Assembly (NCBI GenBank): GCA_041687695.1
Contig: JAWLBL010000042.1
Coordinates: forward strand, 1-47,705
DNA from: Myxococcota bacterium
GTDB taxonomy: Bacteria > Myxococcota_A > UBA9042 > PHBI01 > JAWLBL01
Length of the DNA stretch: 47,705 nucleotides
Reading direction: 5' to 3'
Below are positions 30,001 to 33,000 of this stretch, in pieces. Positions within the stretch are counted from its first letter, which is position 1. Every line of letters starts with the position of its first letter. The position numbers are program-made.

Positions 30001-33000
30001 GCGCCACGTTGACGCTGCCGCCGCCGCCGGCGGCCCCCTGAAGGAGCACCCAATGACGCCCAAGACGCACCGCGCCCGAGTGTCCCCTTTCCTGATCGCC
30101 GCCTTCGCCGCCGCCCTGGCCTTCGTGGCCTGTGACAGCGACCCCGAGCCGGTCGCCGTCTCCGAGACGGTCTCGCTCAAGCTCGGCGGCATGAAGGAGG
30201 GCGACGCCAAGAGCGGCACCCACTCGCAGGACAAGAACGTCAACAGCGAGAGCGGCAACCCCTATGGCGAGTTCCTGAAGACCGCCCGCGACCGCCTGAA
30301 CCGCGACCCCTCCGAGATCCGCGTCCGCCGCGTCGACGTCCGCCTGCACGCCGACAGCACGGGCGCGACCGATCTCGGCCAGGTCTTCGCCGACCTAGAG
30401 GTCTTCCTCGCCAACAGCAACACGACCATCCCGCTGGGCACCGTCGACGCCCCGACCGGCACCTCGGTGCAGGTGCCTCTGAACGCCGGCCTCAGCCTCG
30501 ACGCGCTGCAGGCCTCGCTGCTCAGCGGCGACCTCAAGGCCGGCGCCCGGGGCCAGGTGGTCGACACCCCGCCCGCCAAGTACGACGTGCGCCTGACCAT
30601 CGACATCTCCTTCGAGGCGCTGCCCTGAACCGGCCTCTAAGCGCCTGAACTAGAAGCGCCTGGGTTTCGGGGGCTTGGGAACGGCCGCGGCCCGCGCCGG
30701 GTTGACACCCGTAGACCCCCACCCCCGACACCCGGAGGACCCCATGCGCCTGGCATGGCCGCTCCTCGCCGTCCTGTTCGGCGCCCTCGTCGCCGCCTGC
30801 GACCCCTCCCCCGACGACCCCTTCATCGCCTCCGACGACGACGACGACGATCCCGTCCCGGCGCTCGTCAGCGACTGCGCGGCGCTCGCGGGGACCTGGC
30901 AGGCCCGCGAGCTGCGCCTGACCAGCATCGCCAACCCCGAGGTCATCGCCGCCTTCGACTCGGATCTCACCGACTTCCGCGTCACCTTCACCAACACCAT
31001 CTTCTCGTCCCGCTTCGACCGCCCCGGCATCGAGCCCTTCGCCCAGACCGGCCGCTACGACGTCCTGGGCGACGAGATCGACTTCGAGGACGTGCCGCTC
31101 ATGCCCGGCCTGAGCGCCGGCGACAACCGCTTCGAGTGCCGCATCACCGACCAGGACACCCTGTTCCTGGTCGGCACGGGCGTCTCCTTCGACTTCGCCA
31201 GCTCCGGCGAGCTGCAGCCCGCGCTGTTCGAGGCCGAGCTCGAGCCGCTCTGACCGCGACGCCTCGGCGGACACCCTTGACCGCCGCCCCGCGTTGGTCC
31301 GAGCCTGAGGCATGAACGAGCGACCGGACCCGCTGGCCTACACGCCCTACTACTGCGAAGAGAACGCCTGGCACCTGTGCCAGCGGCCCGAGCTGGCGCC
31401 GCTGGACCCGCACGTCGTGTTCGTCTCGAACGCGCGGCGCTGCGTGCCCATGTGGGCGCAGCGGGCCGCGCCCGAGGGCGAGCCGGTCCTGTGGGACTAC
31501 CACGTCGTGGTGGTCACCCGCGCCCCGACCCCGCAGGTCTGGGACCTGGACTCGCGCCTGGGCCTGCCGGTCCCCGCGACGCGCTGGCTGTCCGGCACCT
31601 TCGCGCACCTGGACGAGGTCCGCGCGTCCTTCCACCCCCGCTGCCGCGTGGTCGCGGCGGCCGAGCTGGTCGCCACCTTCTCGACCGACCGCTCGCACAT
31701 GCGCGGCCCGGACGGCGGCTGGTTGCAGCCCCCGCCGCCCTGGCCGGCCCCCTACGCGCCGAGCCGCGGGATGAACCTGTTCGACTTCGTCGACCCCGGC
31801 GCCACCGGGGCCGGGCAGGTGCTGGACCTGCCCGGCCTGTCCGCATGGCTGTCGGCCGCGTCCTGACGCTCCGTCAGTTCCCAGCCGTGCACGTCCCGCA
31901 GCCGAGCTCGTCGACCAGCATCACGCAGGTCTCGCTCCAGCCGTCGTTGCAGCAGCTCGGCTCGAAGTCGCACACGCACGCGCTGACCTCGGGGTCCACG
32001 CACCCGGGCTCGGGGTGCGGGCTGCAGCAGCTCCCGTCCTCGCAGGGGCCGCAGTCCTGAGGGCACCCGCCGCAGCTCTCCCCCGGCTCGCACTGGCCGT
32101 CACGGCACACCGGCTGGCCCTCGCACGACCCACAGCCCAGCGCCTCCACGCTGCTCGCGCAGACCGCGTCCCAGGCCACCTCGCAGCAGAACGGGTCCTG
32201 CTCGCACATGCAGAAGGTGACGTCGGGCTGCTCGCACCCGGGCGTCGGGTGCGCGACGCAGCAGGCGCCTTCGCAGGGGCCGCAGTCCTTGTCGCAGTTC
32301 AGGCAGCTCTCGCCCGGCCCGCACTCGCCGTCGCCGCACTGGCCGCACTCGCCGCAGTCGTCGGGGCACGTCTCGCAGGACTCGTCCGAGTTGCACATCC
32401 CGTCGCCGCACTCGGCGCACTCGCCGCAGTCGTCCGGGCACAGCTCGCACGACTCGCCGGGCGTGCACATCCCGTCGCCGCACTCGCCGCCGCACGGCCC
32501 GCAGTCGGCCATGCAGGTCTCGCAGCTCTCGATCTGCAGGTCGCACACCTGGTCGCCGCAGGTCGGCTCGGTGTCGCACTGGCCGCAGCCGCGCCGCTCG
32601 ACCAGGGCGACGCAGATGACGTCCCAGGCCACCTCGCAGCAGTACGGGTCGTGGCTGCACACGCACGGCGCGACCTCGCCGTCCTGGCAGCCCGGCTCTT
32701 CGCTGGGCATGCAGCAGCTCGTCGGGCACCCGCCGCAGTCGCGCGGGCACGTCTGGCAGTCCTCGTCGGGGTCGCACGCGCCGTTTCCGCAGATCGGACC
32801 GCACTGGTCCTCGAACACGCAGCCGAACTCCGGATCGCAGGCGTCGGCCGTGCAGAAGTTGCCGTCGTCGCACTCCTTGTCGAACAGGACGCAGCCCCCC
32901 TGGTCGGGGTTGCAGTACCCCTCGAGGCAGGCGTCGCCCTCGCCGCAGTCCAACGGCTGCCCGGCGCAGAAGCCCTGCCCGCAGCTGTCGTTCTCGGTGC

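What a model noticed while it worked through the whole genome (the two positions that open the first line are those of the whole stretch)
31312..31866. Homologue of the eukaryotic N-terminal glutamine amidase NTAQ1 in a bacterium that has ClpS, ClpA and Aat
g05644 (184 aa) matches the whole Nt_Gln_amidase family. It is 37-38% identical over 158-177 residues to mouse, rat, bovine, human and Xenopus NTAQ1, and it keeps the YYCEEN cysteine motif and the DYHVV histidine motif. Boldest reading: it deamidates the N-terminal Gln of proteins. That would add a 'tertiary destabilising residue' step to a bacterial N-degron pathway that ends in ClpS-ClpAP (g04767, g04768) with the L/F-transferase Aat (g04590). 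New would be an N-terminal amidase tier in bacteria, so far a hallmark of the eukaryotic Arg/N-degron pathway.
Evidence so far: Pfam gives Nt_Gln_amidase 7e-45 over model positions 1-177 of 184. All five Swiss-Prot hits are animal NTAQ1, at E 1e-34 to 2e-32. ClpS, Clp_N/ClpA and Leu_Phe_trans rows are present, and there is no ATE_N/ATE_C (Bpt) row. The family is on record at the strict mark in 593 of 189,784 bacterial species genomes, 156 of 1,654 in the phylum, 3 of 17 in the order and 0 of 10,118 archaea. A paper search (Ntaq1, bacterial, N-degron, ClpS) listed 5 papers, of which I saw titles and abstracts only; none is on a bacterial NTAQ1.
(Added by a program. Inside this text positions count along the whole contig: contig position 1 is position 1 of the stretch shown here. 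"Call 12" and the like, gene names such as g00115 and contig names such as C1 are that model's own, and its searches are not shown. The text may have been shortened before it was handed on; [...] marks where a part breaks off. The agent that wrote the report below was given it as the finding of a first reader that could run no searches.)

Follow-up and report, generated by a model that had tools for sequence, protein, structure and literature searches.

The report
Bacterial N-terminal glutamine amidase (NTAQ1) homologue
A soil-type myxobacterium carries an intact copy of the enzyme that starts one branch of the eukaryotic "N-terminal residue decides protein lifetime" pathway, and across related genomes this gene occurs only where a second-step transferase, either the known one or a previously unnoticed stand-in, is also present.

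Summary
Window 31312-31866 (+) encodes a 184-aa, signal-less protein that is a full-length Nt_Gln_amidase/NTAQ1 member (Pfam 2.5e-44; human NTAQ1 structures 1.9e-33; model TM 0.85-0.89). The Cys-His-Asp triad and all five residues that hold the substrate's free alpha-amino group in human NTAQ1 are kept, and are invariant in 176-177 of 177 bacterial relatives. No gene neighbour or fusion ties the amidase to these genes in 75 loci.

New here: in 401 Myxococcota genomes the amidase (47) is found only where Bpt (13 strong, 4 weak matches) or a 329-aa FemX-like tandem-GNAT protein ("AT6", 33) is present; 47 of 47 against 182 of 354. AT6 and strong Bpt never share a genome (0 of 224). AT6 has the fold and the Tyr-Lys catalytic dyad of aminoacyl-tRNA transferases. 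This genome has AT6 on another contig.

Best reading (about 0.4): Nt-Gln is deamidated to Nt-Glu, then extended by Bpt or AT6 for ClpS-ClpAP. The enzyme activity itself is likely (about 0.85); the pathway link is inferred from co-occurrence only. The scan had already noted a bacterial NTAQ1 in another genome.

The parts
31312..31866 (+). Gene for the 184-aa NTAQ1/Nt_Gln_amidase homologue (stop codon included)
31354..31359 (+). Codons for Cys15 (nucleophile, = human Cys28) and Glu16 (= human Glu29, holds the substrate alpha-amino group through water)
   Evidence: alignment; conservation; residue roles from PMC4214742 and PMC11168063
31492..31503 (+). Codons for Trp61-Asp62-Tyr63-His64 (= human Trp78, Asp79, Tyr80, His81): substrate strand contact, alpha-amino binding, triad His
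31543..31545 (+). Codon for Asp78 (= human Asp97, third triad residue)
31696..31701 (+). Codons for His129-Met130 (= human His148, Met149, alpha-amino group binding)
27654..31253 (+). Upstream same-strand genes (GH92 glycosidase 27654-30041; two small lipoprotein-like ORFs 30053-30628 and 30675-31253), gaps 11, 46 and 58 bp. Listed as context only: not conserved next to the amidase elsewhere

Best explanation
The gene encodes a cytosolic Cys-His-Asp amidohydrolase that turns an N-terminal glutamine of a protein or peptide into glutamate and releases ammonia, by the same chemistry and the same grip on the free alpha-amino group as animal NTAQ1 (inferred from sequence and model; my odds about 0.85). 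Its most likely role is the first, 'tertiary' step of a bacterial N-degron route. Step 1: a protease exposes Nt-Gln (methionine aminopeptidase does not uncover Gln; established knowledge). Step 2: the amidase makes Nt-Glu. Step 3: an aminoacyl-tRNA transferase adds a bulky residue. That transferase is Bpt in lineages that have it. In this genome, which lacks Bpt, it would be the 329-aa FemX-like tandem-GNAT protein 'AT6' (G000 contig C1:178827-179798, protein P0330). Step 4: ClpS hands the protein to ClpAP. Shown here: the residues, the fold, the gene inventory and the co-occurrence. Inferred: every enzymatic step, the acceptor of AT6, and the link to ClpS.
For: Family, fold and active site. 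The triad Cys15/His64/Asp78 and the alpha-amino binders Glu16, Asp62, Tyr63, His129, Met130 are present, and each is kept in 176 or 177 of 177 bacterial-side rows and in 64 of 64 rows of alignment A1. No room for a signal peptide: the nucleophile is residue 15. ClpS-ClpA and Aat are present. Phyletic pattern in 401 Myxococcota genomes (sets in 78): amidase 47; all 47 have AT6 (33) or an ATE_C match (17, of which 13 strong; 3 genomes have both AT6 and a weak ATE_C match). Among the other 354 genomes, 182 have one. Within ClpS-bearing genomes the figures are 44 of 44 against 178 of 301. By family, 14 of 14 amidase-bearing families lie among the 36 of 70 families that have AT6 or strong Bpt (hypergeometric 2e-5). 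Within family f36 I counted 7 of 7 amidase genomes among 13 AT6 genomes of about 25, by hand from the rows; no script checked this. AT6 against strong Bpt: 112 and 112 genomes, overlap 0. Both types occur in different families of the window's own class and inside families f39 and f46. The AT6 profile, with all candidates scored, finds nothing in 5 of 5 amidase-plus-Bpt genomes and only weak partial hits in 5 non-myxobacterial ones. AT6 model pLDDT 96.4. Its best structural matches are aminoacyl-tRNA-dependent transferases: FemX Z 20-22.5, FemA 19.8, Sbb17/Sba18 18.5, L-PGS/MprF/A-PGS 15.7-18.4. Plain tandem-GNAT acetyltransferases score Z 15.6 or less at rmsd above 5 A; human ATE1 scores Z 12.5. 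A profile alignment puts AT6's invariant Tyr308-Lys309 on Bpt's invariant Tyr216-Lys217. That is the aromatic-Lys catalytic dyad of ATE1 and FemX, with Tyr as in ATE1 (PMC9351520, passages). AT6 lies beside the amidase (divergent) in one genus and beside clpA-clpS (convergent) in 5 of the 6 loci fetched from family f38. AT6 is in ClpS-bearing genomes in 109 of 112 cases.
Against: No assay of any step. No Bpt in this genome. Bpt alone is not enriched with the amidase. In 75 amidase loci no neighbour family is shared by more than 6 loci, and none is ClpS, ClpA, Aat or Bpt; none of the 55 longer (fused) forms carries such a domain. In this genome the amidase, AT6, Aat and ClpS lie on four different contigs. 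The co-occurrence statistics are not corrected for kinship, and genome size may confound them. ClpS is common anyway (345 of 401), so 44 of 47 says little. The AT6 acceptor is unknown. Its closest folds act on peptidoglycan precursors, lipids or small molecules, and in family f23 its neighbours are a CDP-alcohol phosphatidyltransferase and a phosphopantetheinyl transferase, which hints at lipid chemistry. AT6 lacks the ATE_N zinc-finger half of Bpt, and the profile match to Bpt is weak (probability 50%). Most AT6 genomes (79 of 112) have no amidase. [quoted passage not shown] The gene tree of the amidase does not follow families, as for a mobile accessory gene.
Confidence: 0.4

Rival explanations
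1. It is a true N-terminal glutamine amidase, but its role is not to mark proteins for ClpS. It could process peptides or protein fragments for other ends. For example, it could stop N-terminal Gln from cyclising to pyroglutamate, which blocks aminopeptidases, or it could free ammonia from Gln-peptides taken up by a protein-feeding bacterium.
For: The active site and alpha-amino grip are kept. No Bpt here. No linkage to ClpS, ClpA or Aat in 75 loci. The distribution is patchy and the gene tree disagrees with families, as for an accessory metabolic gene. Scattered neighbours act on amides or peptides: gamma-glutamyltranspeptidase, peptidase S58, amidohydrolases, amidase, asparagine synthase.
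Against: It does not explain why all 47 amidase genomes have Bpt or AT6. The genome already has a pyroglutamyl-peptidase-like match. The amide- and peptide-related neighbours differ from locus to locus.
Confidence: 0.3
2. The bacterial enzymes act on a non-protein substrate that carries a free amino group next to a glutamine-like amide, such as a cell-wall recycling peptide or a small natural product.
For: An exo-N-acetylmuramidase NamZ gene lies directly upstream in 4 Thiodictyon loci. Residue Glu158 of the human enzyme, said to favour a basic second residue, is variable in bacteria. Tyr111 is Trp in 70 of 177 bacterial rows, including this one.
Against: All residues that bind the peptide backbone and the alpha-amino group are invariant. 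The NamZ link is confined to one genus.
Confidence: 0.1
3. The gene is a recent passenger taken from a eukaryote, or a decaying relic with no function.
For: The family was described in eukaryotes. In bacteria it is in only 47 of 401 Myxococcota and 7 of 81 Chromatiaceae genomes sampled.
Against: GC3 is 0.98, like the host's genes. There are 2059 cluster representatives at E 0.001 or better. Bacterial sequences are deeply diverged, with a median end branch of 0.49-0.75 changes per site, yet keep every key residue. The 11 eukaryotic rows form one clade set apart from the window's clade.
Confidence: 0.02

Closest known systems
Animal NTAQ1 (protein N-terminal glutamine amidohydrolase; human structures 4W79, 3C9Q, 6KGJ, 8JJ*)
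   Same: Same Pfam family over its whole length. Same fold (TM 0.85-0.89, rmsd 1.8-2.1 A). Same Cys-His-Asp triad and the same five alpha-amino-binding residues. Similar size, single domain.
   Different: The host is a bacterium without ubiquitin ligase UBR, ATE1 or NTAN1 matches (the UBR and NTAN1 searches had no positive control). Tyr111 is Trp and Glu158 is Gln. Any downstream recogniser would have to be ClpS, not UBR1.
Bacterial Leu/N-degron pathway: ClpS-ClpAP with Aat (Arg, Lys, Met) and Bpt (Asp, Glu; Vibrio vulnificus)
   Same: ClpS, ClpA and Aat are present here. In Bpt-bearing hosts of the amidase (13 Myxococcota, 4 Chromatiaceae, 1 spirochaete) all parts of a Gln to Glu to Leu-Glu to ClpS chain are on hand.
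   Different: The described pathway has primary and secondary residues only (preprint 10.1101/2021.07.26.453911, passages). No amidase tier is described in the papers I searched. This genome lacks Bpt.
FemX/FemA, aminoacyl-phosphatidylglycerol synthases (MprF) and ATE1/Bpt: aminoacyl-tRNA-dependent transferases (comparison for AT6, the candidate second step)
   Same: Tandem-GNAT fold (Z 15.7-22.5). Invariant aromatic-Lys dyad aligned with that of Bpt (PMC9351520).
   Different: No sequence-level match to any solved structure. Pfam calls it only Acetyltransf_6. It has no ATE_N half and no membrane domain. Its acceptor is unknown.
Yeast Nta1 and protein-glutaminase of Chryseobacterium
   Same: Both deamidate Gln in polypeptides. 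Protein-glutaminase shares the papain-like triad fold at low similarity (TM 0.34-0.38; PMC4214742).
   Different: Nta1 is of the nitrilase family (recalled, and PMC11168063 passage). Protein-glutaminase is secreted and acts on internal Gln. Neither matches this protein by sequence.

Membership tests
NTAQ1 / Nt_Gln_amidase (PF09764) | Full-length match above the family's curated cut-off | tested here: met
   151.5 bits against a cut-off of 27, model positions 1-177 of 184
NTAQ1 / Nt_Gln_amidase (PF09764) | Catalytic triad Cys28-His81-Asp97 (human numbering, PMC4214742) | tested here: met
   Cys15, His64, Asp78; invariant in 177 of 177 bacterial rows
NTAQ1 / Nt_Gln_amidase (PF09764) | Residues that bind the free alpha-amino group: Glu29, Asp79, Tyr80, His148, Met149 (PMC11168063) | tested here: met
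   Glu16, Asp62, Tyr63, His129, Met130; 176-177 of 177 bacterial rows
NTAQ1 / Nt_Gln_amidase (PF09764) | Alpha-beta-alpha sandwich fold of human NTAQ1 | tested here: met
   Model pLDDT 96.0; 15 human NTAQ1 entries at TM 0.85-0.89, next best fold TM 0.38
NTAQ1 / Nt_Gln_amidase (PF09764) | Deamidates N-terminal Gln but not free, internal or acetylated Gln | not testable with these tools
   Needs an enzyme assay; the specificity of the mouse enzyme is recalled (Wang et al. 2009, not held)
Eukaryotic Arg/N-degron pathway | ATE1 arginyltransferase and a UBR-box recogniser downstream of the amidase | tested here: not met
   ATE_C, ATE_N and zf-UBR: 0 matches in the genome; the UBR search rang in no control genome, so it is weaker
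Bacterial Leu/N-degron pathway | ClpS adaptor with ClpA, and L/F-transferase Aat | tested here: met
   clpS-clpA pair on contig C28, aat on C26
Bacterial Leu/N-degron pathway | Bpt, the known transferase for N-terminal Asp/Glu | tested here: not met
   No ATE_C or ATE_N match; genome 99.27% complete; control rang in Caulobacter
Bacterial Leu/N-degron pathway | Genomic linkage of the amidase with pathway genes | tested here: not met
   75 loci, no ClpS/ClpA/Aat/Bpt neighbour; 55 fused forms, none with these domains
Bacterial Leu/N-degron pathway | Phyletic dependence of the amidase on a transferase for acidic N-termini | tested here: inconclusive
   47 of 47 with Bpt or AT6 against 182 of 354. 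Strong, but not corrected for kinship, and AT6's acceptor is unknown
Aminoacyl-tRNA-dependent transferases (for AT6, P0330) | Tandem-GNAT (FemABX-type) fold | tested here: met
   FemX Z 20.2-22.5 over 289-292 residues; ranks 1-23 are all such transferases except one protein of unknown function
Aminoacyl-tRNA-dependent transferases (for AT6, P0330) | Catalytic Lys preceded by an aromatic residue (klAte1 Tyr303-Lys304, FemX Phe304-Lys305) | tested here: met
   Invariant Tyr308-Lys309 aligned to Bpt's invariant Tyr216-Lys217 by profile alignment, not by superposition
Bpt / ATE1 (for AT6, P0330) | ATE_N domain with its Cys cluster and acidic-residue pocket | tested here: not met
   Pfam finds only Acetyltransf_6. 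AT6 has one invariant Cys against four in Bpt's N-terminal half

The most novel reading that the evidence does not exclude
Some bacteria run a three-tier N-degron pathway: Nt-Gln to Nt-Glu by an NTAQ1-type amidase, then extension by an aminoacyl-tRNA transferase, then ClpS-ClpAP. In Bpt-less Myxococcota the middle step would be done by a new, FemX-like class of protein transferase (AT6) that has replaced Bpt several times. As a corollary, eukaryotic NTAQ1, a single clade on a short stem amid diverse myxobacterial sequences, would be of bacterial origin, like the Bpt/ATE1 and ClpS/UBR1 pairs.
Probability: 0.3. Interest if true: 0.85.

Novelty: new variant of a known kind. Interest (0 to 1): 0.65.

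Why it matters
Amidase-made "tertiary" destabilising residues are treated as a eukaryotic feature. The bacterial pathway is described with primary and secondary residues only. An intact bacterial NTAQ1 whose presence tracks a transferase for acidic N-termini makes the question "do bacteria have a third tier?" directly testable with standard reporters. The by-product may matter more: a widespread uncharacterised FemX-like protein that never shares a genome with Bpt is a concrete candidate for a new aminoacyl-tRNA protein transferase. The tree also bears on where the eukaryotic pathway got its parts.

Tried and rejected
1. Bpt as the obligatory partner: rejected. 17 of 47 against 103 of 354. The 5 of 5 outside the phylum is explained by background, 75 of 81 Chromatiaceae.

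2. A conserved operon partner: none found. The largest neighbour cluster covers 6 of 75 loci. NamZ (Thiodictyon), NFACT/RqcH-like (one genus), PrmA-like methyltransferase (family f36, plus one fusion, P0131) and ADP-ribosylglycohydrolase (2 loci) are lineage-bound.

4. The window's own GH92-lipoprotein-amidase row: not kept in the two same-order genomes.

5. Long open frames upstream of the domain in some loci (434-774 aa): no Pfam domain and low GC3, so taken as over-extended ORFs, not fusions.

6. Fusions: 55 longer proteins carry scattered partners (UDPGP twice, GNAT twice, PrmA, LMWPc, NUDIX and others). I saw no theme worth trusting.

7. AT6 context: no neighbour shared widely in 40 loci. 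Bpt context likewise in 20 loci, by BLAST against my own reference set only.

8. Complex prediction of AT6 with the amidase: no verdict (score 0.22, mark 0.32, after the queue was full).

9. Sequencing runs: none was listed, and no RNA holder was listed.

10. Promoter and terminator scan of 27400-32400: 0 promoter-like sites, and 1 terminator-like site on the wrong strand inside the gene.

11. ATE1 and L/F-transferase were not among Foldseek's first 50 matches for AT6. ATE1 appeared at rank 40 with VIA.

12. NTAN1, UBR-box: no match, but no control genome rang either.

13. Reading Aat's acceptor pocket for a change of specificity: not attempted, because I had no residue list from a call.
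Full report
THE OBSERVATION

Window 31312-31866 (+) is an ATG-started ORF of 184 codons. Its GC at third codon positions is 0.98, like the surrounding genes.

- It matches Pfam Nt_Gln_amidase over model positions 1-177 of 184, at E 2.5e-44 and 151.5 bits against a cut-off of 27.
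- It matches all 15 distinct human NTAQ1 chain sequences in the PDB, at E 1.9e-33 to 4.8e-32.
- NCBIfam has no model for it.
- A model built on 64 aligned relatives has mean pLDDT 96.0.
- Its first 15 Foldseek matches are all human NTAQ1 entries (TM 0.85-0.89, rmsd 1.8-2.1 A, 33-35% identity). The next fold, protein-glutaminase, reaches only TM 0.34-0.38.

ACTIVE SITE

Park et al. (PMC4214742; passages and section 11 read) give the triad as Cys28, His81, Asp97. They describe strand 76-79 and Tyr80 as holding the substrate backbone. The 2024 substrate-complex study (PMC11168063; passages) names Glu29, Asp79 and His148 (through two waters) and Tyr80 and Met149 as the residues that hold the N-terminal alpha-amino group.

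In the HMMER alignment these correspond to:
- Triad: Cys15, His64, Asp78.
- Alpha-amino binders: Glu16, Asp62, Tyr63, His129, Met130.

I aligned 194 rows. The rows were the window protein, 28 proteins from named loci, 10 named bacterial hits, 21 domain segments cut from longer proteins (9 of them labelled eukaryotic and 12 others), and 134 representatives of 235 aa or less. Longer representatives were left out. Each of these eight positions is kept in 176 or 177 of the 177 bacterial-side rows. For this count, 6 unlabelled rows inside the eukaryotic clade were set aside.

Two positions differ. Tyr111, which bonds Asp97, is Trp here; bacteria have 107 Tyr and 70 Trp. Glu158 is variable.

With the nucleophile at residue 15 there is no room for a signal peptide.

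I conclude that the protein is an enzyme that recognises a free N-terminus bearing Gln. That is inference from conservation, not an assay.

THE GENOME AND THE KNOWN PATHWAY

The window lies in a 7.97-Mb, 63-contig, 99.27%-complete assembly of an uncultured Myxococcota bacterium. The phylum comes from the relatives named and from earlier notes.

- The amidase is present in one copy.
- There is a clpS gene followed 31 bp later by a Clp_N/AAA gene.
- There is one aat gene.
- ATE_C and ATE_N give no match, although the control rang in Caulobacter.
- NTAN1 and UBR-box searches were empty, but no control rang for them.
- A pyroglutamyl-peptidase-like match exists.

The known bacterial pathway has primary residues (Leu, Phe, Tyr, Trp) and secondary residues. 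Arg, Lys and Met go through Aat. Asp and Glu go through Bpt in Vibrio vulnificus (preprint 10.1101/2021.07.26.453911, passages; PMC9351520, passages).

DISTRIBUTION AND DESCENT

The family is large.
- 1970 clusters at 90% identity matched among near-length proteins.
- 2059 representatives at 50% identity matched at E 0.001 or better, 187 of them at 1e-30.
- NCBI already labels some MAG proteins "protein N-terminal glutamine amidohydrolase".
- Named relatives are Myxococcota (Polyangiaceae, Sandaracinaceae, Nannocystaceae), Chromatiaceae (Lamprocystis, Thiodictyon, Thiohalocapsa), one spirochaete and one Acidobacteriota.
- It is in 47 of 401 sampled Myxococcota genomes and 7 of 81 Chromatiaceae.

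Two trees were built: FastTree on 194 rows, and IQ-TREE quick with LG+C20 on 83 rows.
- Both put all labelled eukaryotes on one side of one branch, with support 91-96 and 93. There were 9 such rows, then 11; two were identified as koala and crinoid.
- Both put the Chromatiaceae in one clade (99 and 98) inside a Myxococcota-rich group that holds the window protein.
- Deep branches are weak (75-92) and the root is unknown, so no donor can be named.
- Within Myxococcota the gene tree does not follow families. Families f23 and f44 are scattered. This fits an accessory gene that moves.

CONTEXT

I called genes with my own GC3 heuristic, which is a limitation.

- In 28 named loci I scanned 129 proteins, the target plus up to two neighbours each side.
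- In 46 further Myxococcota loci I scanned 134 neighbours and 26 chosen ones.
- Clustering all neighbours within three genes across 75 loci gave no cluster in more than 6 loci.
- No ClpS, ClpA, Aat or Bpt gene and no FHA domain appeared.
- The window's own row (Na/Pi transporter, GH92, two small lipoprotein-like ORFs, amidase) is not shared by the two same-order genomes.
- Fused forms are scattered and mostly single sequences.

THE TEST OF THE PATHWAY IDEA

Bpt alone fails. 17 of 47 amidase genomes have an ATE_C match, against 103 of 354 others. The 5 of 5 found outside the phylum is background, because 75 of 81 Chromatiaceae have it. ClpS is in 44 of 47 against 301 of 354, and the three exceptions are 81-89% complete. 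That is too common to tell.

A lead came from one genus, where a 330-360-aa Acetyltransf_6 protein sits divergently beside the amidase. I call it AT6.

- Searched with that protein at E 1e-25 over the same 401 genomes, AT6 is in 112. At most 5 first-look candidates per genome were scored.
- This includes the window's genome, on contig C1, at 37% identity.
- Set arithmetic: AT6 and ATE_C overlap in only 3 genomes. All three are weak ATE_C matches of a different paralogue of about 360 aa.
- AT6 and strong Bpt (112 each) never coincide.
- All 47 amidase genomes have one or the other: 33 AT6, 13 strong Bpt, and 1 incomplete genome with a weak match only. Among the rest, 182 of 354 do (Fisher 5e-13).
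- Within ClpS-bearing genomes the figures are 44 of 44 against 178 of 301.
- By family, 14 of 14 amidase-bearing families lie among 36 of 70 (2e-5).
- These figures are not corrected for kinship. But both transferase types occur in different families of the window's own class, and inside two families.
- A profile search with every candidate scored found no AT6 in 5 amidase-plus-Bpt genomes. It found only weak partial hits in 5 Bpt-bearing genomes of other phyla.

WHAT AT6 IS

- Sources call it "GNAT family N-acetyltransferase".
- Pfam sees only Acetyltransf_6 in its second half.
- It has no sequence relative among solved structures.
- Its model has pLDDT 96.4.
- The model is closest to FemX (Z 20.2-22.5, 289-292 residues, rmsd 3.5-3.8), FemA, the Sbb17/Sba18 peptide synthases and the soluble domains of MprF and aminoacyl-phosphatidylglycerol synthases. 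All of these use aminoacyl-tRNA.
- It scores clearly higher against these than against plain tandem-GNAT acetyltransferases. Human ATE1 scores Z 12.5.
- A profile comparison with 19 myxobacterial Bpt proteins gives probability 50%, E 1.6e-4, over 130 columns. It aligns AT6's invariant Tyr308-Lys309 with Bpt's invariant Tyr216-Lys217.
- PMC9351520 (passages) identifies this aromatic-Lys pair as the catalytic dyad. It is Tyr303-Lys304 in Ate1 and Phe304-Lys305 in FemX.
- AT6 lacks Bpt's Cys-rich N-terminal half.
- Its context is not conserved across 40 loci. In 5 of the 6 loci fetched from family f38 it lies next to clpA-clpS (convergent, mostly with a peptidase S49 gene between). In family f23 it lies next to lipid-type genes.
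- Bpt loci show no pathway neighbours either.

VERDICT

The gene is a genuine bacterial NTAQ1-type amidase (odds about 0.85).

The missing Bpt is real. But the amidase's strict co-occurrence with "Bpt or AT6", the mutual exclusion of those two, and the transferase fold of AT6 give the idea a concrete, testable form (odds about 0.4).

The main rival is a role in peptide processing unrelated to ClpS (0.3).

IN PRINT

I found no paper on a bacterial NTAQ1 or on an amidase tier in bacteria. The searches were made, over Creative-Commons PMC and bioRxiv only. I saw only listings for most hits and passages for six papers. I read no supplements. Wang et al. 2009 was not held. This scan had noted a bacterial NTAQ1 with an FHA partner in another genome.

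Noticed in passing
G000 contig C1:178827-179798 (locus L078:1402-2490; protein P0330), outside the window: A 329-aa FemX-like tandem-GNAT protein (Pfam Acetyltransf_6). It is found in 112 of 401 Myxococcota genomes and never together with a strong Bpt match. It is a candidate new aminoacyl-tRNA transferase.
   Followed up: yes
window 31874-38191 (-): A 2105-aa secreted-looking protein made of dozens of cysteine-rich repeats of about 40 aa (CDDGDACNG...C...G.C), with Dicty_CTDC hits. The long ORFs on the opposite strand look like artefacts of the repeat. It is similar to the cysteine-rich repeat lipoproteins noted earlier in this genome.
   Followed up: partly
window 976-3366 (-): A LonB/LonC-type AAA protease (AAA_32, LonB lid, LonC helical, Lon_C domains). 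This is an archaeal-style Lon in a myxobacterium.
   Followed up: no
window 38215-47043: Two cytochrome P450 genes (38215-39726, 43374-45095), a radical-SAM gene (41056-42270) and an IrrE/M78-domain protein (45646-47043). Possibly a small-molecule tailoring cluster.
   Followed up: no
window 9605-13756 (+) and 19350-23426 (+): A 1383-aa Ser/Thr kinase with AAA_16 and TPR parts, and a 1358-aa protein with MopE-type metal-binding motifs.
   Followed up: no
L072, L073, L074, L025 (one genus of family f44): The amidase gene follows an NFACT/RqcH-like gene on the same strand. RqcH-type proteins work in ribosome quality control, which tags stalled proteins for degradation. This was seen in one genus only.
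   Followed up: partly
L047, L052, L063 (family f36) and fused protein P0131: A PrmA-like class I methyltransferase lies directly after the amidase in three genomes and is fused to it in one protein. The Pfam match covers only the generic SAM-binding part.
   Followed up: partly
Myxococcota genomes (e.g. G086:C216:10143-10499, G161:C361:3388-3729): A second, weaker ATE_C-like paralogue with open frames of about 350-420 aa (E 1e-15 to 1e-19). It often occurs beside a normal Bpt, and in three family-f23 genomes it occurs without one.
   Followed up: no
L019, L020, L024, L028 (Thiodictyon): The exo-beta-N-acetylmuramidase gene namZ lies directly upstream of the amidase. In L019 the two genes overlap by 4 bp.
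   Followed up: partly
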